A stretch of DNA of 64,000 nt from the human T2T-CHM13v2.0 reference genome, Homo sapiens. The stretch lies in NCBI RefSeq assembly GCF_009914755.1, contig NC_060933.1. The stretch is one strand, 5' to 3'. The notes beneath the pieces were generated by a model. The model was given only the letters and a program-made list of their open reading frames with translations. It made no database searches and was not told where the DNA came from. The position numbers were made by a program, and so were the translations under genes. Shown here piece by piece: positions 32,234-50,328 of this stretch; the first letter of the stretch is position 1; every line of letters starts with the position of its first letter.

Positions 32234-32269
32234 GTCACTGGACCTATTTGGGCTGGGGAGAACAACAGA
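32234..32269 (+). CDS. UNC13B: UNC13B 36-nt alternative microexon ((C)[11 protein letters not shown](T)), phase 1-1
   Basis: ttttcttag| acceptor and A|gtacgt donor; symmetric and frame-preserving. Gives [23 protein letters not shown], similar to the recalled UNC13A segment CNWNYFGWGEQH and rodent ubMunc13-2. Confidence 0.8.
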
Positions 32270-40543: not shown

Positions 40544-41027
40544 TCAAATATAACTTTCAGAAAGTTAACAGCTTGGCTTCTTTTTAGACTAAAAATTTAT
40601 CAGCAAATTTCGTTTTCTTGAAATCCCTTGATATATTTTGCTGGTATACTTTAATATTGCAAATACATTCTAGATATTGGTACAACATGTTTCATTTTTT
40701 TCATTTGTTTCTTAGAAAAATAAAAGAATTCTAAAAAGCTCACCAATGAAAAATGATTGCAAGTTGAAGCATTTAAAAATTGATATTATAGCTGTTCTTT
40801 TTCTCATATGGAATAAACTATTTGACTACATTGATATAATATTTAAGAACATGTGGATTTCCTTTTCATATTTTTTTAGTCTGAATGCTTTTTATCACAT
40901 TGGCAATTTTATTGTTCTAGTCTTCTCATTGAACATGTATTAAATCTTATAACTTCTTTCTTCCTTTTCCCTGTCTCTTCCTTTTTCTTTGCTTTATTGT
41001 TCCTCCAATTTTATCCCTTCACATCAG

Positions 41028-41330
41028 ACAAGGCTCACAGGCTAAAGATGAAAAAATTAGGATTATTTCAGCTTTCTCTGATGTTGACTATGAAGAGCAA
41101 GAAGATATACATAAGGAGATAGAGGGGAAAATATCACAAGAGTTTCTAGAAAATAATAACATAAACTTGAAGGAAGCAGAGATAAAAGAAATTAGAACCC
41201 TTTCAAAAGCTGATAAATACTACAGCCAACAAAAACAACCAAAGTATAAGAACAGGAAAAAGATACCACCTCAGAGCCAACAAACAGAATTCTCTACTGA
41301 GTTTAAGGTTGAAACTTCTGTTTTCTCCAG
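41028..41330 (+). CDS. UNC13B: Candidate 303-nt in-frame cassette exon, or 5' extension of the giant exon (QGSQAKDEKIRIISAFSDVDYEEQ...ETSVFS), phase 2-2
   Basis: ~75-nt pyrimidine tract, no AG from 40921 to 41025, acatcag| acceptor, open frame continuous with the giant ORF, CAG|gtatgc donor at phase 2. Confidence 0.6.
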
Positions 41331-44300
41331 GTATGCTCAGAAATATGATACACTAGATAGAAGAAGAAAAAAGAAATCCTTATACAATCATTTTGAAGAC
41401 AGTGAAAGAAGGCAATATGGTGAGAGATCTGAAACTAAGACTAACTACAAAAGTACATATTCTAATACTGAAAATTGTACCCTTTGCCATACTGAAAAGA
41501 AACAAAATATGGGGTACCCAGTTTTGTACCCCTACAAAAATGGATTTGTGGTTAAGAGTGGCATGCAGCGCATTAAGTTGGAAAGTCATGATTATGATCT
41601 GTCCAGTTGTTTAAGGCACTGTGAAAAGTCATCTGGCTCAAACCAGCATGTCACTAATTTTACCTCATTAGATATTCTTGAAGATTCTACTAGTAGTACT
41701 TCTGATGAACTTCTGGGTTCCCCCATTTCTGATAAGCAGGAAAATTTACAGTCACCAACATGGCATTCATCCAATGTCCACCATATTGGAGATTTTCCTG
41801 AGGAATATTATGTAGCAAATTCAGCATTGCCATTACAAAGGATGAATTGTGATGCAAAAACACTTGGAGATCTGTCTGAGTGCTCTATAGAAGAGATAAC
41901 CCCTTCCTCTATTGAGGAGCCCAAGGAGGACCGTATTGATACAATGGATGAGCTTCAGTGTTTGGTAGAAACGGTGTCAGAATATTTAGCAGAGAAGGAA
42001 GAGGAGATTAATAGATTTGGTTCACTTTCAAAAACTAAAAAATCACATAAACAAAATAGTACTCTTGATGCAGAACAGAGAACGCCTGGGGATCAAATAC
42101 CACCTTTAACTATTGTCAAGAATGACAAGGACACGGCCATCTCTTTCCCTGAGTTGACTGGAGTACAATGTGCTGTTGGTTCTTTGTTTAGTTCACTCAC
42201 AGAAAAAGTGGGTTCAGGCACAAAGCATCTAACAAACTCTGTGGAAAAGTTGGTTTCCTTAGTTCCAGAAAAAACAGAAACTCTTAATCAAATAGAGGCA
42301 ATTAATTTGGGATCTAAACCCAGAGCCATGGCAGTATTGGGGAAGGATCTTTCCATGCAATCTCCATTATCCTCTCAAAAAGATGATAATGTGAATATAG
42401 ACAGACATAGAAAAACCTCTGAAAATGAGCACATGGGTAATAAAACTGGGAGTTTATACTTTCAGAATACAACAGAAAGTATTGCAAAGGACTTGGCTCC
42501 ACAGAGTCAGAGTTCAGTTATAAAGTCGGTTTTCAGCAGGTTAAATCCATTGAAGATCTTTTCAGAAAAGGAGGAAACAAAAAAAGATGATGACCAGAGT
42601 AAGCCACCAAGAAAAGAAAGCTTTGTTGAGTGTGGTTTGGAGTTAAATAAAAGGGAAGGCACTCTTGACAATTACAGTAGTAGCATCATTGCTTTAAATG
42701 GGAGTGATGAAGAAACTACGGGCTGGTTCCAGATGCCCACAAGTGAGAATTTGTTGTCCTCCCAAGTAACCAGTGAACCTTCAAACTTAGTTAGTTCTGC
42801 AAGTAAAAATGATGAGAGTCTATTGGAAGAAAAACTCTGTATAGATCTGTCTCTTTTACCAGATCAACAAAAAATATGTGCCAAAGATACTCCAGGACAT
42901 CCTTGTATAGCTGGCAGTAGAACTGCAAATAAAGAGGTATTTTCAAAGCCATTAGAGGAGGACAAAGTTACAGGTAATGATGATTTCCTTGAGCCACTCA
43001 GAAAATCATTTAGCCAGTTTTTGCTCACTTCCCCTGAGACTTGTTCAAAGGAAAGTTTGTCAGAACCTGTGAAAATTCGCCAGGTGGAGGAAGATGGTTT
43101 AGAAAGGGGCTCTAAGAAAGATGGTCATTCCTTTTCCTTTAGTGGAAAACTAAATCTTCCATTTTTTAGAAGTCTTGGTCATTCTGAAAAGCAACAGGAG
43201 TTAAAAGAGAAAGGAAGCATTTTTCCTTTGTTTAAATTTTCTTTCACTGACAGCAAGGTTACTGTTAATGACCAGAGTTTACGTGGCTCAGCAGTAACCA
43301 CTGATGAGGAGAGCAAAAAAAATTGCCATGAAGATACCAAACATAGTTCAATAAAATCTAGTTCTGTTCCAAATATTCATAGTGATCTAGGAAAATTTGA
43401 CAGTACAGAGGAATTTAAAAAGAATGACCAGATAAATTGTCCTGAAGATGCCAAACTTAATTCAATAAAATCTAGTTCAGTTCCAAATATTCATGATGAT
43501 CTAGAGAAGTTTGACAGTATAAAGGAATTTAATAAGAATGACCAAGTAAATTGTCCTGAAGATGCCAAACTTAGTTCAATAAAATCTGGTTCAGCTCCAA
43601 ATACTCAGGATAATCTAGGGAAATTTGACAGTACAGAGGAATTTAATCAGAATGACCAAATAAATAGTCCTGAAGATGCCAAATTTAATATAATAAAGTC
43701 TGATTCAGTTACAAATATTAATAATGATCTGGGGAAATTTGGGAATATAGAGGAATTAAATCCAAGTGACCACACAGCAGGACAGAATTTTGAAAGGGAT
43801 GGCTTAGCCATCCCTGGAGTTGTGCCCAAAGAACATATAACTTCAGATCCTTTAGGAGAAGATAAGAATCTTATACAAGCAGCATCTTCAGTAGCATCAG
43901 ACTCTTCATTAGAGTGTATTTCTACCACTTCCAAATCCACTTTGGTTAATGAAATTAATGAAGATGAGGTTATAGATAAGACTTCCAAGAAAAATACCCA
44001 AGGAAGCTTCCTTTCTGGCCTGTTTAATAGGTTTTCTTCTGCTGAAAATTTGTCTAGTCAAGAATTAAATTTGAAAAATGATGACTCCCATCACAAGAAT
44101 AATACCCCAGGTTTAATCTCTGGAATATTTAACCTGCTATCAAATAGCGGTATGATTGATCATAAACCAGAGGAAGCAAAGTTCATGTCTTTAGGCAACA
44201 TGAAGAGTTTGAATGGAGATAACCATTTATCCTTGGATGAGGTCCCTGCTACTTCATGTGTGACTTCTGAGAACCCGAAGAACCATGTTGAAAAACATGA

Positions 44301-47300
44301 AACTTCTAGCTTCATAGAAGCCTCCTTATTACCTAAAGAAAACATACCATTATCTGATGCTGGGGATGATAATCATTATTGTTCCCCTACAGAGAAAAAC
44401 CAGCAAAGTGAAAAGCATCACCCCTCCTCTGAGAACATTGTACTTCACTGTGCTCCAAGTGCTCAGCTAGGTTTTTTGGAGAAATCTATGGCTAAGAGGC
44501 AAATGCCAAACCATGTTCTTGAGGCAAAACTACATGAAAATTCAAACAAGTTAAATTCACCTGTACTAAATACCAACATTCTCAATAAATCAAACAACTA
44601 TCAGGCTTTTGAAGAGATGAACAGTCCTTTCTGTTTTGAATGGGACTCTGACATAAAAGATTTGTCTAAAAATTCCAGAAAACTTCAGCCAGTTTATTAT
44701 ATGTTAAATCAAAATAGATTTCTATCAGCCGATGCTTGCTTGTGGCTTGACTCAGAAAACTCAGTGATAAATTTTTGCCAAAAAGATCAAAATGCAAACA
44801 TCTTGGAGTGGAGAACAAATCCAAACAGTGTCATTTGGTGTGACTTACCATATGAATCATTCAATCAGTTAGCATTTAATGAAGATTACTTATTAAGAGG
44901 TGATGTGTGGGCAGCTAACTCATTATATGGAAACTCTGGTCCTCTTCCAATTAATGAGGCTAATAATTCACTAGAAGAATTACCCATTGACTTAAGTTCT
45001 TCATCAGATCATGAAAAGACTACATGCCCCGTAGTTGATCAAGAATCATTAAGAATGGATGAAAACTTTGTTTTTTCAAGTTTTGGTTATGAGTACCAGG
45101 AATGGTTGTCATGTCTTGAACATGGAGTGTGGTGGCCATCAGAGGATGGGGATTATGGATATTATATGTTTCATGATGGTCAATATATCTATTCTCTTCT
45201 CACTGATTCTACTGGGCAGTATGCATATTTATTTATACCTGATTCTTATCAAGAGTATTTGGATTGTGATTTACAGACAAATGGTCTATCAAGTATTACG
45301 TTGGATGACAGCATTATTTCTGCCTGTAGTTTTAAAGTACTTGATAAGGAAGATGAAATATTTTGGTATGTTGAAGAGGAACCAATTGATGACCCTCTTG
45401 ATTTATCTTTAGCTTTGCCAAGAAGTGAGGAACCATTGTATCTAAATTTAGAAACCTTTTCACAAGTACTTAAAGAGTCAAGTTGTGACCAAAGCGATCA
45501 GCCACTAGATTTTTCAGGCTATAATCGTCAAAAGTTTAAAGGAGACTTTAGATCTTTCAAAGAAAGGCCGTGTGGTTCTGAAGACGCTGAATGTACATTA
45601 GATCTCAGAAATCAGCCCCAAACTATTAGTAATCATGTCTCAAGCAGAGATCAAATTATAGAGAGAGATAAAAACCAGCCTCTAGCTGAAGATTCATCAG
45701 TTCACCTTTCCAGTTTCCATTGGCTTCAGTCTTCTGTTGAAGAAGTTACCACTTTGGTTCATCCTGAAAATATGACTAAAGGCTCACAACAAGCAGAAGA
45801 GACATCATTAGTGAACAAAGTGGCTTCAGTATTTTCTGTTTTGGGTGCCTCAGTTGGAAGTACTTTGAAGTTTGATAAGAGTGAATCCTTAGAGGCTTTG
45901 GCCATGCAGAAAGTGAATCAGCAGTCAGATTTAGCAGAGCTCACAAATGATGGCTTTCAGTCATTAATCATGAGTAAGCAATTAGAGGGTAACTCCCCAA
46001 ATGTGGAAAAAAGTCTTCTTAAGGATTCAGAAAGACAGATAGTATCCAATGTTCAGCATCCAGAATTGATCAAAAATATAAGGCAAGAATTCTCTTTAAA
46101 TAAAAACAACCATGTGAAAAAGCAAAGTTTGTTAAAATCTGGTTTCCAGGTAAGCCAAACAACTCCTCAGGCTAAATCAGGTGTAAAAGATGATGAAATC
46201 ATTACAACAGACTCTATTTCAGTTTCTCCTGCACCTCAGCATAGTGGGGATGAGCGTGAGAATTATGAGCTTCCCCAGGGCCAGTCATCCAAAGAGTCTG
46301 ATAAAACATTATTTAAAAGTTCATTGAAACTCTTCAGTCAAGAAGAATCGTCAGTTAGTATGACAGCAAATGAAAAACAGTCATCTGGATTTTTGAATCT
46401 TTTTAAGACTCAGGTGAATAAAGAAGGATCACCAAACTTAGAAAAGATTGGTGATACAAATGTCAAGATACCACCTCAAGAAAAGAAAGAATCTTCTGGT
46501 GTTTCAAATTTTTGGGGTACCCTTGGGGATTTCTTTAAAGCCAATGTATCTCCTATACAGACAACTGAAAATACGTCTGTTTCTTCAATGACTATTAAGG
46601 ATGAGGTCAGGTCAAGTCCTACTCCTATGGAGCTAGCTAGCCAGGGTGCTGGGAACTTTCCTGCTGCACCAATTTCCTCTAAAGGGAAGGCTAGAGTTAG
46701 AAGACTGAACAAACAGACTACTATCGATGACAGTAGGTTAGAGGAATCAACTAGAGGGATCCAGGGTAATGATTTGACTGAAAAAGAGGTACCATTCAGA
46801 GACCATCTAATCCAGCAGTCACCTAATTCATCTTTTTCAACAAGTAGTCTCAAAGAGTCTTCCAGGGAGTCTTCAGTAGAAACTAGTGGTGTGACTACAG
46901 TGACAGAAGTTTCAAAAAGTAATGAAATATCCTTTGATACCCTGAGCAAGAGAAATTCAAATGAACAAGATCATTTTTCTGACAAAGACTGGAGTTTCTC
47001 TATGGCTGCAACATCTTCATCTCAACCAGAGTTATCAACCAAAAAGAGTATATTTTCTTTTCTCACTGGATCTGAAAAATCTGAGAACAGAGCCTCTGCT
47101 ACTCTACCAAGAGCCAAATCTCAGGCAGAAGGGCTATTCACACTTCCTTCATTTTTTTCCACTGCTAGCTCAAGCATTAAGAAGGATGCCTCTCATAGTA
47201 GTTCTACTTTTAGTTTCTTCAGCTTGTCCTTTTTGGATCAAAAAAAGGAGACCTCTGGGGAAAAACAAAGCATTTCAACTGTTGTTCCAGTGACCTCCCA

Positions 47301-49577
47301 GCCCTGTAAGAAGACAAATGTTTTTGTAGAGAGTGGTAGCACAATGACCAGAGAAAGTTCCAGTGGTCATAGAGATAGCATAGCCCAAGAAGTAGTTCAT
47401 GAACAGCAAATGGCACCTTGTATTTCCATTAACAACACCATTGAGGTTACCTCCCTTGCAGATGAGCTCAGTGTAGACAAGGACTGTCAGGAAAAACTGA
47501 GTTCCAATATTGTACCAGGGACATCAGTGGATTTCCAGATGAATGAATTGCAAAAAGACATTATTCCTCCTTCACCAGAATTTCAGGCACAGGCTGAAAC
47601 ATTCCTCACTGGCCCAGAGAACCTTGGGATAGCTCCCCATGAAGAAGAGGCTTTCAACCACAAAGCCTTCCCCAGTGACTCACTGTCCAACTCTTTTTCA
47701 CATGCTAAACAGTTAATTGAAAAATTCAATGATTTAGACACTTGTACTAACTGCCACCAAAATGAGAAATTTACTACTGACCCAGTGAACTTGCCATTAG
47801 AAAAGGCCCCCGATGAGGTCTTACCACAGATCCTAGAGCCAGCCTCTTCCTCTCCAGAGCCAGGGTGTGCAGGGAACCTTCAGAACCAAGATGCAGATAA
47901 AGAGGAAGACAAATTTGCATTAGGCTCTTCAGTAGACATGCTTTCAGGGTTTGTGACCAAAGTGAAATCTTTCTCTGGGAGCTTAATTGAACCTCCCAAA
48001 ACACTCTCTGGACTTTTCTCCTCTCCTAAATCTCCAAAGAAAAACTCCTTTTTCTCTCTTGCTTCTGATGTATCATCTCAGCCCCTCAAAGGTGAATTAT
48101 TTGGAATTTTCAAAAGTCCCAAGCCAGAGCCATACAAACAAGAATCATCTCTCCCAGCTACTTCATGGCTTCAAAATGGTTGTTCCAGAGATGCTGTAGG
48201 ATCAGTACCTCCAGAAAGGAGAGAAGCTGCCTTTACAGCACTAAGTTCAGAATCTACTCTCAGTGACTGTAGAATGACTGTGGTTAGTGCAAAGCCAGAA
48301 TCAGATATCTTGACAGATGATCCTAAACTAACAACCAAAATGGAAGACAATAATACTCCTGAAAATATTCTGGAACCTCAACGTTCTGAAACAATTAATA
48401 CATCTTCTTTCTCGGGTGATGATACTGGGCAAGGAGTATTGTCTCTGAGTGATGAAGGAGACATGGGGATATTGCAAGCTACAGACACGGAGGCATCGTT
48501 AGAAGCAGAGAACTTTGCGCTGCCAGCACAGTTGCATCCAGATCCTACCTGCATTGCCGAAGAGCTTCCTCCTCCCATTCAGCCACCTCTTCCTCTTGAG
48601 CCAGAGCCAGCTATTCAAACTGCCTCCACAAACCAAGACTTACTGGAGCTGCATCCAGCCAGTTCACTAGAAACTGATACTATGCTGTTCAATGATGCAA
48701 GTGTGAGCCAGAGCACCACTCTGGAAACCGAAGGGCACTTTTCTCATCCTCTGCTGGAGGACCCTGTGCTTGCTGCCAGAGAAAGTTGTGAGATAATTCA
48801 TGCCCAGAAAGATCCACCTGTAGTACCCCAGGAAACAGAGCAGTCAAGACCACGTTTTGAGATCCCAAATGTGACCACTTGGCCAAAGCTTCGTTTGCCA
48901 TCCTCTGCTACTAACCATGGGAAACCACTGAGCTCTTTCTTTTCCTCACCTCTCCCCTCTGGCAATAGAGCAGCAGAGACTGGTTTAATGTCCAGTTTTA
49001 AGAAGTTGTCAACTCTATTTGAGGGAAGTAGTGAGGGGAAAGGGAGTGTATTAGCAAGTGATTCAAAACTAGGATTTGGAAAGGTAGATCTTTCATTTCC
49101 ATGGCCAAAAGAGAACAAAGGGGTCCCTGAACAAATGCCTACAGAATCCTCCCCTCCAGTTTTAGTTACTAGCAGTGATCAGGACCTTAACTCCAGTGAG
49201 GCTAACAAAGCTTTGAAGTCTTCTCAAATATCTGGGGCCAGTGCTCAGCCAGGTAAAGTCTACACTCAGCCCTCTGGGACCTCTGAGCAGCTGGTGGCCA
49301 GTCCAGAGGTCTGTGCTCAGGGGCTTTCAGGGTCTGGAGAAGGGGGAAACCAGCAGGAAATCTCAGCATCTGGAGAACACTGGGATACCAAAGCCAACCT
49401 GTCTAGCCCCGCCTGTCCTTCAGGGAAACATGAGGAAGAACCCTCCACTGTCTCTGAGATATTTCACCAGCTAGAAAAACAAGAAGAGGAGGCAGTACCT
49501 GCCAGTACTGACTCTGATTTGAATGTACAGCAGCCAGTCACTCTGAATGACATCAAGGAGCCCATGACCAACAAAAG
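41331..49577 (+). CDS. UNC13B: UNC13B giant alternative coding exon, 8247 nt / 2749 codons; the frame runs on to TAA at 49654-49656 if unspliced
   Basis: 2829-aa ORF in the track with no TE-like sequence. The ttctgttttctccag| acceptor is in phase with the upstream exon. A phase-2 AG|gc boundary at 49577 joins in frame to 51628, and 1591+2749=4340 aa matches the recalled length of the long UNC13B isoform. The 3' boundary is less certain than the 5'. Confidence 0.85.
43321..43770 (+). repeat. Coding tandem repeat, 114 bp (38 aa) x ~4, inside the giant exon
   Basis: Units start at 43321, 43435, 43549 and 43663; approximate consensus NCPEDAKLxSIKSSSVPNIHxDLGKFDSTEEFNKNDQI. Confidence 0.95.
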
Positions 49578-50328
49578 GCCTGTTCTTAACTCAAGCATCA
49601 TAAATGGCTTTAAGGAATTGACCATTTATGATGCAAGTGACTTAGTGGTAGATTAATCATAGCTTGCTTTTTATCCTTCTTGTGTCTTTCCTAGTACCCG
49701 AGCTTCATGTTAATTAGGGGTTAAATAACAAGAACTCAGTGTGTGGGTATTTTCATCCTCCCCTTCTCTCTCTGCCAAATGTAATTCATTTACTGGAACA
49801 AGGAGCTTCCTGCTTAAAGCAAAAGCTGGGCCCCCGATATTTACTCACTCTGGTTTGCTCTGCCTTGTATAATGTGAAATGGAGAAAGGAGGGCAGGAAG
49901 AGGTAGTAAGTAGTTGGTGGTATATATTAACTACAACTACATGATAGGCTAGGATGCTTCCTTGGGCCTTAGGCACTTATATCTTGTAGGAGATGGGGAT
50001 AGATCTATTTTGCTTTGTTTTTTCAAGTCTTCTAAGATGCTTTCTCCAGTGGCAATGAGTGTATTAAGCAAAATACAAAGTGCAAAGGATGCCTTGGGAT
50101 AGTCTGTATTCCCATATCCTATTCCATACAGATTTGCATAGTTTCTTCCATGGTATCATCTCTGCCTTTTACTACCCTCAAGGCTGATGTCTGATAAATG
50201 CTTTGAGTAAAATCTCACAGGAACTCAGAGCTGTCCTTTGCTGTAGTTCTTCAGTCTCGAGCAGTGTACAGGATCTATCTGCAGAGGGTACTGTTATTTC
50301 CCCTAAGAAGCAGTACCATACAGTACAG

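What the first reader, a model, noticed from the sequence alone, without database searches (positions are those of the whole stretch)
44983..45609. Cluster of PxDLS-type CtBP/RIBEYE-binding motifs
Seen: PIDLS (44983-44997), PLDLS (45394-45408) and PLDFS (45502-45516), plus variants PLYLN (45433) and TLDLR (45595), within ~210 aa in acidic context. Distant variants are CIDLS (42838) and KVDLS (49081). Known: PLDLS is the canonical ligand of the CtBP cleft; the RIBEYE B domain is essentially CtBP2; Bassoon/Piccolo-family proteins use PxDLS-like motifs. Inference: multivalent docking of Munc13-2 to ribbons or presynaptic CtBP1.
Basis: partly seen in the sequence, partly recalled or inferred. Interest (0 to 1): 0.85.

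Follow-up and report, generated by a model that had tools for sequence, protein, structure and literature searches.

The report
Conserved CtBP-type motif array in UNC13B
A giant, little-studied alternative exon of the human synaptic priming gene UNC13B carries short peptide motifs of the kind that dock onto CtBP and the ribbon protein RIBEYE, kept from fish to human, which makes a new link between Munc13-2 and synaptic ribbons directly testable.

Summary
All seven motifs sit at the stated coordinates, in frame, in the 8,247-nt coding exon of UNC13B. Composition shuffles make two P[LIVM]DLS unlikely by chance (P = 3e-4), but conservation is the decisive evidence. Four of the five clustered motifs (PIDLS, PLDLS, PLDFS, xLDLR) rank in the top 0.2-2.6% of conserved 5-mers among 34 amniotes and stand well above their flanks. 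The PLDLS and PLDFS positions persist in teleost unc13ba, and the PLDLS-to-PLDFS spacing stays 32-36 residues in all 52 sequences. PLYLN, CIDLS and KVDLS are not conserved as such. Two AlphaFold2 runs place the motifs in low-confidence, unstructured stretches flanking a small folded core. Two motifs fit the CtBP/RIBEYE cleft ligand P-x-[DN]-L-[ST]; PLDFS and xLDLR do not. CtBP/RIBEYE docking is the best reading (about 0.45). It was not tested, because no CtBP sequence was available here. The exon is absent from proteins the size of the two studied isoforms, and where it is expressed is unknown. The searches that paired Munc13 names with CtBP, RIBEYE or PXDLS found no paper reporting such a link. 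This is a new candidate member of a known motif class.

The parts
41331..49577 (+). Giant alternative coding exon of UNC13B. It is 8,247 nt = 3 x 2,749, so inclusion or skipping keeps the frame. It encodes 2,748 full codons.
   Evidence: Hub annotation. Stop-free frame 40933..49656. Translation without a stop. AG acceptor behind a pyrimidine tract. Orthologous open frames of about 2,500-5,000 aa from mammals to teleosts.
44629..45681 (+). Conserved module (exon aa 1100-1450). It is the longest well-conserved block of the exon and holds the motif cluster and a small folded core.
   Evidence: Conservation profile (50-aa bins from aa 1151 to 1376 score 0.56-0.77 against 0.06-0.5 over much of the exon). 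phmmer over 1.84 billion representatives gave 65 hits at E<=1e-3 and 61 at E<=1e-10.
44974..44997 (+). Motif 1: EELPIDLS (P-[IMV]-D-L-[ST]), a canonical CtBP-type PxDLS.
   Evidence: 34 amniotes: PIDLS 23, PMDLS 10, PINLS 1. Conservation 0.93 against flank 0.53, rank 51 of 2,744 5-mers. 42 of 52 sequences including teleosts match the recalled ELM pattern. pLDDT <50 and no secondary structure.
45076..45261 (+). Small folded core (exon aa about 1249-1310; EWLxxLExGxWWPSEDGxxGYYxxxDxQYxYSLLTDxTGQYxY): one helix followed by a beta-meander.
   Evidence: AF2 pLDDT 79-92 for module residues about 150-205; H152-164, E167-170, E176-182, E187-193, H207-211. Repeated on a fish fragment with pLDDT 64-82. 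Invariant W159, G166, W168, G177, L191, T192, D193, G196, Y200 in 52 sequences. No Pfam family. Best structural match Z 3.5.
45394..45408 (+). Motif 2: PLDLS (P-[LVMIE]-[DN]-L-[ST]), a canonical CtBP-type PxDLS and the best-conserved motif.
   Evidence: 34 amniotes: PLDLS 32, PVDLS 1, PIDLS 1; conservation 0.99 against flank 0.60; rank 6 of 2,744. 49 of 52 match the recalled ELM pattern. 50 of the 56 deep homologues whose alignment covers the site read P.[DN]L[ST]. P256 and D258 are invariant in 33 sequences. pLDDT <50.
45451..45477 (+). Conserved segment NLETFSQxxEES between motifs 2 and 3, a weakly predicted helix.
   Evidence: N273, F277, S278, S284 and Q288 are >=90% conserved in 52 sequences. 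AF2 helix 275-283 at low confidence.
45502..45519 (+). Motif 3: PLDFSG ([PAG]-[LVM]-D-F-[ST]). It is a related motif with Phe at position 4 and lies outside the CtBP consensus.
   Evidence: 34 amniotes: PLDFS 32, LLDFS 1, PLDYS 1; conservation 0.99 against flank 0.57; rank 6 of 2,744. 0 of 52 match the recalled ELM pattern; D 50 of 52 and F 50 of 52. It starts 32-36 residues after motif 2 in 52 of 52 sequences.
45595..45609 (+). Motif 4: TLDLR (x-[LFAIV]-D-L-[RST]). It is a related motif without the leading Pro.
   Evidence: 34 amniotes: TLDLR 19, ILDLR 12, ALDLR 2, VLDLR 1; conservation 0.89 against flank 0.42; rank 71 of 2,744. D 51 of 52 and L 49 of 52. Median 31 residues (26-41) after motif 3.
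45433..45447 (+). PLYLN: not a conserved motif. Only the trailing LN(L)E belongs to the conserved NLETFS segment.
   Evidence: Conservation 0.40, rank 1,712 of 2,744; LMNMN in 13 of 34 amniotes.
42838..42852 (+). CIDLS: a distant variant that is not conserved.
   Evidence: Conservation 0.40, rank 1,718 of 2,744, 22 different 5-mers among 34 species.
49081..49095 (+). KVDLS: a distant variant, moderately conserved as K-[LV]-D-[LF]-S, with no Pro.
   Evidence: Conservation 0.58, rank 732 of 2,744; KLDLS 11, KLDFS 9, KVDLS 4 of 34.

Best explanation
The cluster is a real, deeply conserved array of short linear motifs. It sits in an acidic, unstructured stretch on both sides of a roughly 60-residue folded core, inside the frame-preserving 8.2-kb alternative exon of UNC13B. 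These points are shown: the motifs exist; four of them are far more conserved than their flanks from human to birds and turtles; motifs 2 and 3 persist in teleost unc13ba; their spacing is fixed; and they are predicted to be unstructured. The function is inferred. Motif 1 (P-[IMV]-D-L-S) and motif 2 (P-x-[DN]-L-[ST]) are ligands of the PXDLS cleft of CtBP-family proteins (CtBP1, CtBP2, the RIBEYE B domain). A giant Munc13-2 isoform (ub-type C2A N-terminus + exon + C1/C2/MUN) would therefore dock bivalently on CtBP-family dimers, tetramers or filaments, as Piccolino does with its PXDLS array. Motifs 3 and 4 (PLDFS, xLDLR), at fixed distances of about 36 and 31 residues, would add weak or auxiliary contacts or serve another partner.
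For: Sequence pattern: across 52 sequences, motif 2 keeps P 51, D 51 (N 1), L 51 and S/T 50, while position 2 varies freely (L 40, V 6, I 3, M 2, E 1). The variants seen in fish are PVDLS, PMDLT, PINLT, PEDLT and PIDLT. Tolerance at x, D/N at position 3 and S/T at position 5 is the PXDLS/T signature. 49 of 52 (motif 2) and 42 of 52 (motif 1) match the recalled ELM pattern. Conservation above flanks. 8 of 20 motif columns are >=90% conserved against 11 of 269 columns outside the motifs and the core (Fisher P = 5.6e-6). Accessibility: pLDDT <50 and no secondary structure at all four motifs in the human model; also low confidence in a 37%-identical fish fragment. Enrichment over composition. [quoted passage not shown] Several PXDLS motifs with unstructured spacers of about 25 and 45 residues are needed to bundle RIBEYE filaments (preprint 10.64898/2026.04.28.721253). 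Immunoreactivity for the ub-type N-terminus, which the giant isoform shares, marks retinal ribbon synapses (PMC7660176, PMC11536687).
Against: Motifs 3 and 4 are as conserved as motifs 1 and 2 but fail the CtBP consensus: Phe at position 4 in 50 of 52, and no Pro at position 1 in motif 4. A single partner for all four would therefore not be a textbook CtBP cleft. The motifs are not isolated islands. GFKVxL, EDELxW and NLETFSQxxEES between them are also conserved, and the motif 2-3 spacing is nearly invariant, which also fits a larger element that folds on binding. No basic residue follows the motifs, unlike E1A PLDLSCK (recalled). The exon is missing from proteins the size of ubMunc13-2 and bMunc13-2, and I found no evidence on where the giant isoform is expressed. 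Munc13-2 is reported at the arciform density at the ribbon base, not along the ribbon (PMC11536687 passage). Loss of Munc13-2 has only mild effects at photoreceptor synapses (PMC6539712, PMC7660176 passages). AF2 low confidence could partly reflect the shallow alignment (33 sequences).
Confidence: 0.45

Rival explanations
1. The four motifs, the folded core and the conserved segments between them form one composite interaction module for a different, still unknown partner. That partner would read hydrophobic-Asp-[Leu/Phe]-[Ser/Thr/Arg] four times, or the module would fold on binding. The likeness of motifs 1 and 2 to CtBP ligands would then be incidental.
For: All four motifs share x-hydrophobic-D-[LF]-[STR] and are about equally conserved. 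Two of them cannot be canonical CtBP ligands (0 of 52 each). The motif 2-to-3 distance is 32-36 residues in 52 of 52 sequences and motif 3-to-4 is 26-41, tighter than expected for free linkers. Further conserved positions lie between them: F235, K236, L238, W246, N273, F277, S278, S284, Q288. In the fish model an extra strand (GFKV) joins the core at pLDDT about 64.
Against: No confident intramolecular packing of any motif is predicted in either model. The strict Pro at position 1 of motifs 1-3 (44, 51 and 42 of 52) together with a free position 2 is what the CtBP cleft demands and is not explained by a generic hydrophobic-D-hydrophobic reader. No candidate partner is known. No Pfam family, no structural match (best Z 3.5) and no Atlas neighbour points to any other system.
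Confidence: 0.3
2. The motifs are SUMO-interaction motifs: short hydrophobic cores next to acidic or serine runs that bind SUMO by beta-strand addition.
For: P-I-D-L followed by SSSSD, I-L-D-L preceded by SEDxE in 12 of 34 amniotes, and the acidic surroundings (46 D/E against 13 K/R) resemble the recalled SIM pattern ([VILPM][VIL]x[VIL] with acidic or Ser flanks). PIAS-type VIDLT is a close look-alike (recalled).
Against: Position 2 is not always hydrophobic: PEDLT at motif 2, and PPNLS, PTNLS and APNLS at motif 1 in fish. The Ser run after motif 1 is human/primate-specific (YSS, CSS elsewhere). Phe at position 4 of motif 3 is invariant and unusual for SIMs. Pro at position 1 is conserved, which SIMs do not need.
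Confidence: 0.1
3. There is nothing functional here: chance matches in a long low-complexity exon, or an exon that is not translated to any useful level.
For: PxDLS-type patterns are short and common in proteomes. PLYLN, CIDLS and KVDLS are indeed not conserved motifs. The synapse papers I read speak of only two Munc13-2 splice variants (PMC7660176, PMC11536687).
Against: Four motifs rank 6, 6, 51 and 71 of 2,744 in conservation. Motifs 2 and 3 persist to teleost unc13ba, e.g. Danio rerio. An uninterrupted frame of 2,500-5,000 codons kept in mammals, marsupials, reptiles, birds and teleosts is not compatible with non-coding sequence.
Confidence: 0.04

Closest known systems
Piccolino/Piccolo PXDLS array that binds the RIBEYE B domain
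   Same: A giant presynaptic scaffold-type protein with several conserved P-x-D-L-[ST]-type motifs in unstructured sequence. The spacers are tens of residues long: here 36 and 31 residues from motif start to motif start for motifs 2-3-4. In Piccolino the unstructured spacers are about 25 and about 45 residues (preprint 10.64898/2026.04.28.721253, passages). Piccolo's PVDLT is also conserved across vertebrates (PMC10760060).
   Different: Only two motifs here are canonical, against seven reported in Piccolino. They are 126-163 residues apart with a folded core between them. Binding is untested. The host protein carries a vesicle-priming MUN module rather than being a pure scaffold. No sequence homology to Piccolo was looked for or seen.
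Classical CtBP co-repressor ligands (adenovirus E1A PLDLS, RIP140 PIDLS, ZEB1/2 with several PLDLS/PLNLS; all recalled, not from a call)
   Same: The core pentapeptides are identical (PLDLS, PIDLS). There is more than one motif per protein. The evolutionary variants (D>N, S>T, any residue at position 2) match the tolerated variants of this class.
   Different: Those are nuclear transcription regulators. This is a cytoplasmic/presynaptic priming protein. No basic residue follows the motif here.
Bassoon/Piccolo-CtBP1 interaction at conventional synapses (Ivanova et al. 2015, recalled; one search returned only later papers co-mentioning PXDLS, Bassoon and CtBP1)
   Same: An active-zone protein that would hold CtBP1 in the presynapse through PXDLS-type motifs.
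   Different: No experimental support for UNC13B. The motif-bearing exon is absent from the two isoforms studied at synapses.
SUMO-interaction motifs
   Same: A short hydrophobic core with Asp in an acidic or Ser-rich setting.
   Different: Conserved Pro at position 1, a non-hydrophobic position 2 in some lineages, and an invariant Phe in motif 3.

Membership tests
CtBP-binding PXDLS/T motif (ELM class LIG_CtBP_PxDLS_1; pattern P[LVIPME][DENS][LM][VASTRG] recalled from memory) | Core sequence P-x-[DN]-L-[ST] (matches the class pattern) | tested here: met
   Met for motif 1 (PIDLS; 42 of 52 orthologues match) and motif 2 (PLDLS; 49 of 52). Not met for PLDFS (0 of 52), TLDLR (0 of 52), PLYLN, CIDLS or KVDLS.
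CtBP-binding PXDLS/T motif (ELM class LIG_CtBP_PxDLS_1; pattern P[LVIPME][DENS][LM][VASTRG] recalled from memory) | Motif lies in accessible, intrinsically disordered sequence | tested here: met
   This rests on prediction only. pLDDT <50 and no DSSP element at module residues 119-123, 256-260, 292-296 and 323-327. The repeat on fish fragment P0150 has motif 2 at pLDDT about 38. The alignment is shallow (33 sequences).
CtBP-binding PXDLS/T motif (ELM class LIG_CtBP_PxDLS_1; pattern P[LVIPME][DENS][LM][VASTRG] recalled from memory) | Motif conserved above its flanks among orthologues | tested here: met
   0.93 against 0.53 (motif 1) and 0.99 against 0.60 (motif 2) in 34 amniotes. 8 of 20 motif columns >=90% conserved against 29 of 331 others (P = 3.6e-4).
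CtBP-binding PXDLS/T motif (ELM class LIG_CtBP_PxDLS_1; pattern P[LVIPME][DENS][LM][VASTRG] recalled from memory) | Direct binding to the CtBP/RIBEYE-B cleft, lost on DL>AS or cleft mutation | not testable with these tools
CtBP-binding PXDLS/T motif (ELM class LIG_CtBP_PxDLS_1; pattern P[LVIPME][DENS][LM][VASTRG] recalled from memory) | Ligand and CtBP-family protein present in the same cell and compartment | not tested
   Papers place ub-type Munc13-2 immunoreactivity at retinal ribbon synapses and CtBP1 on ribbons. Expression of the exon-containing isoform is unknown.
Piccolino-type multivalent PXDLS array | Three or more cleft-binding motifs separated by unstructured spacers of about 25-45 residues | tested here: inconclusive
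   The spacing of motifs 2-3-4 (36 and 31 residues) is of that order. Motifs 3 and 4 are not canonical, and I could not see the sequences or ITC data of Piccolino's weaker motifs (Supplementary Fig. S10 of the preprint, not held).
SUMO-interaction motif (pattern recalled) | Three to four hydrophobic residues [VIL] in a four-residue core with acidic or phosphoserine flank | tested here: inconclusive
   Each core has only two aliphatic residues (I/L, L). Position 2 is E, P or T in some fish. The acidic flank is present.

The most novel reading that the evidence does not exclude
UNC13B encodes, beside ubMunc13-2 and bMunc13-2, a roughly 4,300-residue 'Piccolino-like' Munc13-2. Its giant exon would tether a complete priming machine (C1-C2B-MUN-C2C) directly to RIBEYE/CtBP1 through a fish-to-human conserved PXDLS array. 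This would explain why ub-type Munc13-2 immunoreactivity is the ribbon-specific Munc13, and it would give the RIBEYE cleft a second physiological ligand besides Piccolino.
Probability: 0.2. Interest if true: 0.85.

Novelty: new member of a known kind. Interest (0 to 1): 0.68.

Why it matters
[quoted passage not shown] It is also unexplained how Munc13-2 with the ub-type N-terminus, rather than Munc13-1, is selected for retinal ribbon synapses (PMC7660176, passages). A motif array conserved from teleosts to human in UNC13B gives both questions a concrete test that needs only peptides. It also draws attention to an 8.2-kb coding exon, conserved across bony vertebrates, that the synapse papers I read do not mention. 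If the motifs bind CtBP1 rather than RIBEYE, they would add a second active-zone anchor for presynaptic CtBP1. If they bind neither, the fixed-spacing array and its small unassigned fold define a new interaction module of unknown partner.

Tried and rejected
1. I suspected that the exon's most conserved stretch (aa 205-226, MDELQCLVETVSEYLAEKEEEI) is the ELKS1-binding coiled coil of bMunc13-2 (residues 145-187 in Kawabe 2017, PMC5379939, passages). A search with exon aa 150-330 listed the best 120 of 280 hits and none is a protein of about 1,985 aa, so this is not supported.
2. Pfam on the whole exon protein gave only two sub-threshold cytochrome matches (E 0.066 and 0.34), taken as noise.
3. 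The fold search of the AF2 model against 48,161 PDB representatives gave a best Z of 3.5 (beta-meander look-alikes in propeller blades) and none at Z >= 5. No fold was assigned.
4. The ESM Atlas gave no usable hit.
6. Docking to CtBP/RIBEYE-B was not attempted, because no CtBP sequence was available from the window or from any search result, and the complex tool's named references cover only bacteria, archaea and phages.
7. Cooper et al. 2012 (PMC6620942), the primary paper on ubMunc13-2 at photoreceptor ribbons, is not held. I relied on later papers that cite it.
8. Literature: 'Munc13-2'+'CtBP' gave 3 papers, which use CtBP2 only as a ribbon marker or mention both separately. 'RIBEYE'+'Munc13-2' gave 8 papers, 7 listed; I read passages of five and none reports binding. 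'PXDLS'+'Munc13' gave 2, both about Piccolino. 'UNC13B'+'CTBP2' gave 9, seen as a listing only, judged from titles to be gene lists. 'UNC13B'+'NM_001371189' gave 1, a Wilms tumour study seen as a listing only (one search was a separate search; this one is).
9. No supplementary files were opened. Figures and bioRxiv supplements are not held, so Piccolino's individual motif sequences and affinities were not seen.
Full report
OBSERVATION.
The window is human chr9 with UNC13B on the + strand (hub table). Translating 44983-45609 gives 209 residues that begin with PIDLS and end with TLDLR. The frame is part of a stop-free stretch, 40933..49656, of 2,907 codons, which contains the annotated exon 41331-49577. 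The in-frame translation 41332-49575 is 2,748 residues without a stop. The surroundings are acidic, with 46 D/E against 13 K/R in aa 1210-1430.

I tested chance with 20,000 composition-preserving shuffles.
- PxDLS is expected 0.125 times per exon; P(>=2) = 0.0076.
- P[LIVM]DLS is expected 0.023 times; P(>=2) = 3e-4.
- Three P.D[LF]S within 180 residues occurred at 5e-5.

THE EXON.
It is 8,247 nt, exactly 2,749 codons' worth, so skipping or including it keeps the frame. The acceptor is a pyrimidine tract followed by AG. The two bases after the annotated end read GC rather than GT. Pfam finds no family in the 2,748 residues.

A search with exon aa 1100-1450 found 151 proteins and listed the best 120.
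- They include primate UNC13B models of about 4,340 aa carrying C2, C1 and MUN domains.
- They extend to other placentals, marsupials (50-55% identity), and turtles, a lizard and birds (46-49% identity).
- In many genomes the exon alone is annotated as an 'uncharacterized protein' of about 2,700-2,900 aa.
- Among these 120, the only protein shorter than 2,500 aa is a low-quality bat model of 1,524 aa.
Proteins the size of ubMunc13-2 and bMunc13-2 (1,591 and 1,985 aa, lengths recalled) therefore do not contain this region. A second search with aa 150-330 (best 120 of 280 listed) likewise showed none of that size.

I chose 34 of the 120 listed proteins: one per genus, with source names, spread over 20 placentals (human included), 4 marsupials and 10 sauropsids. 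I aligned the module and the whole exon. Mean identity to human over the exon is 0.705 (placentals), 0.413 (marsupials) and 0.309 (sauropsids). The module aa 1150-1400 is the longest well-conserved block.

Giving the three groups equal weight, the motif 5-mers compare with their 40 flanking residues as follows:

| Motif | Conservation | Flank | Rank of 2,744 |
|---|---|---|---|
| PIDLS | 0.93 | 0.53 | 51 |
| PLDLS | 0.99 | 0.60 | 6 |
| PLDFS | 0.99 | 0.57 | 6 |
| TLDLR | 0.89 | 0.42 | 71 |
| PLYLN | 0.40 | 0.66 | 1,712 |
| CIDLS | 0.40 | 0.47 | 1,718 |
| KVDLS | 0.58 | 0.55 | 732 |

The last three fail the test. Only 16 stretches of four or more residues in the whole exon reach 0.9. Four of them are EELP (leading into PIDLS), PLDLS, PLDFSG and LDLR.

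DEPTH.
phmmer with the 351-residue module against 1.84 billion cluster representatives gave 65 hits at E<=1e-3 and 61 at E<=1e-10. The hits are 55 to 6,041 aa long, most of them 2,000-6,000 aa. Of 12 scanned with Pfam, two carry C1+C2+MUN and three an N-terminal C2. Searching with one of them named its relatives as teleost proteins, including Danio rerio unc13ba isoform X2 (7,131 aa), herring, arapaima, stickleback, medaka and pipefishes.

I mapped 60 of the 61 new hits onto the human module by BLASTP.
- The motif 2 position reads P.[DN]L[ST] in 50 of the 56 whose alignment covers it.
- The motif 3 position reads ..D[LF][STR] in 46 of 52, and P.DF[ST] in 36 of 52.
- Motif 1 is covered in only 18, and 13 of those read P.[DN]L[ST].

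I also made a 52-sequence alignment (A1); its size was limited by the tool, so many hits were left out. In it:
- the recalled ELM pattern matches motif 1 in 42 of 52, motif 2 in 49 of 52, and motifs 3 and 4 in 0 of 52;
- at motif 2, P is kept in 51, D in 51, L in 51 and S/T in 50, while position 2 varies (L, V, I, M, E).
Eight of the 20 motif columns are >=90% conserved. This compares with 29 of 331 other columns (P = 3.6e-4) and with 11 of 269 columns outside both the motifs and the folded core (P = 5.6e-6).

Spacing is also held.
- Motif 2 to motif 3: 32-36 residues (median 36) in all 52.
- Motif 3 to motif 4: 26-41 residues (median 31).
- Motif 1 to motif 2: 126-163 residues.

STRUCTURAL CONTEXT.
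AlphaFold2 with a 33-sequence alignment (A2) gave mean pLDDT 47.9. Only module residues about 150-205 are confident (79-92): a helix (152-164) followed by three strands (167-170, 176-182, 187-193). All four motifs lie in segments with pLDDT below 50 and no secondary structure.

A repeat with a 197-residue fish fragment as target (37% identical to human; A3) again gave a confident core (64-82), plus a strand at GFKV (about 64). Confidence was low at motifs 2 and 3, with a long helix of low confidence between them. The core has no Pfam family, no convincing PDB neighbour (best Z 3.5 of 48,161 chains) and no Atlas neighbour.

The motifs thus behave as linear motifs flanking a small unassigned fold. 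Two caveats apply. The alignments are shallow. Other conserved positions lie between the motifs: F235, K236, L238, W246, N273, F277, S278, S284, Q288.

LITERATURE.
- The CtBP/RIBEYE-B surface cleft binds PXDLS/T peptides, and such peptides label ribbons.
- Piccolo has a PVDLT conserved in all vertebrates.
The three points above come from PMC10760060, abstract and passages.
- A 2026 preprint (10.64898/2026.04.28.721253, passages) reports seven PXDLS motifs in Piccolino with spacers of about 25 and about 45 residues. Several motifs are needed to bundle RIBEYE filaments, and CtBP1 sits on ribbons.
- Reviews and a knock-in study describe two Munc13-2 splice variants, with the ub-type at retinal ribbon synapses and at the arciform density. 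Loss of Munc13-2 there has mild effects (PMC7660176, PMC11536687, PMC6539712, PMC7699581; passages).
- The four searches that paired Munc13-2, Munc13 or UNC13B with CtBP, RIBEYE, PXDLS or CTBP2 found no paper reporting binding of Munc13-2 to CtBP/RIBEYE or mentioning the motifs. None of the Munc13-2 papers I read passages of, nor the listings, describes the giant exon. Papers outside the held library and supplements were not seen.

MECHANISM.
Shown: four conserved, evenly spaced, acidic, unstructured motifs around a small fold, in a frame-preserving giant exon joined to the ub-type C2A N-terminus and the C1/C2/MUN machinery.

Inferred: motifs 1 and 2 dock in the PXDLS cleft of CtBP-family proteins. 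The variation pattern argues for this: strict Pro, free position 2, D/N, strict Leu, S/T. Their pentapeptides are identical to classical ligands (E1A PLDLS, RIP140 PIDLS; recalled).

Against a pure CtBP reading: motifs 3 and 4 are equally conserved but non-canonical, and the spacing is nearly invariant, which suggests a larger composite interface. I rate CtBP-family docking at about 0.45, an unknown partner or composite module at 0.30, SUMO-interaction motifs at 0.10, and no function at 0.04.

VERDICT.
It is a new candidate member of a known motif class, in an isoform that the synapse papers I read do not describe.

Noticed in passing
window 43316-43761: There is a coding tandem repeat of 114 bp x 3.9 copies (84% matches), giving 38-residue units (…SIKSSSVPNIH.DLGKFDS.EEF.KNDQINCPEDAKL…). 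In the 34-species alignment, conservation in exon aa 701-825 (the 50-aa bins starting at 701-776) falls to 0.06-0.18, and to 0.00-0.02 in sauropsids. The array looks like a lineage-restricted expansion inside the exon.
   Followed up: partly
window 41329-41331 and 49576-49580: The exon length is an exact multiple of three (8,247 nt), so skipping keeps the frame. The acceptor is a good pyrimidine tract plus AG. The bases after the annotated exon end read GC, not GT, i.e. a non-canonical, probably weak donor. If the intron is retained, the frame runs 26 more codons to a stop at 49654-49656.
   Followed up: partly
window 41944-42009 (exon aa 205-226): MDELQCLVETVSEYLAEKEEEI is the longest near-invariant stretch of the exon and is kept even in teleosts (alignment A1). 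It looks like a short coiled coil. My idea that it is the bMunc13-2 ELKS1-binding motif was not supported. Its partner is unknown.
   Followed up: partly
window exon, e.g. aa 283, 895, 930, 1906, 1934, 1940, 1961, 2226, 2239, 2258, 2534: Short Ser/Gly-Leu/Phe-Phe-Ser motifs recur (SLFSS, SGLFN, SGIFN, SIFSF, GLFTLPSFFS, SFFSL, GIFKS, SSFFSS); a loose pattern gives 16 overlapping hits. EGLF, SFFS and LFEG are among the 16 most conserved stretches of the exon. They might be amphipathic membrane- or vesicle-binding elements; this was not tested.
   Followed up: no
proteins P0026, P0081, P0085, P0147, P0161, P0170, P0188, P0200: Several annotated models (macaque, hamster, guinea pig, stickleback, other teleosts) hold a C2 domain and the giant exon region but no C1 or MUN domain. 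They may be truncated 'scaffold-only' isoforms, or simply incomplete gene models.
   Followed up: no
window 32234-32269: A 36-nt exon of other transcripts lies here, within a RefSeq 'silencer' (hub table). PMC7948980 (passage) reports a Musashi-dependent, photoreceptor-specific alternative exon in mouse Unc13b without naming it in the text I saw. Whether it is this micro-exon was not checked.
   Followed up: no
alignment, first block (human exon aa about 1165-1180): Sauropsids carry a further S-[LI]-D-[LF]-S (e.g. QSLDLSVMSYESFDQL) where mammals read SVIWCDLPYESFNQL. This is a lineage-specific extra copy of the hydrophobic-D-L-S theme upstream of motif 1.
   Followed up: no
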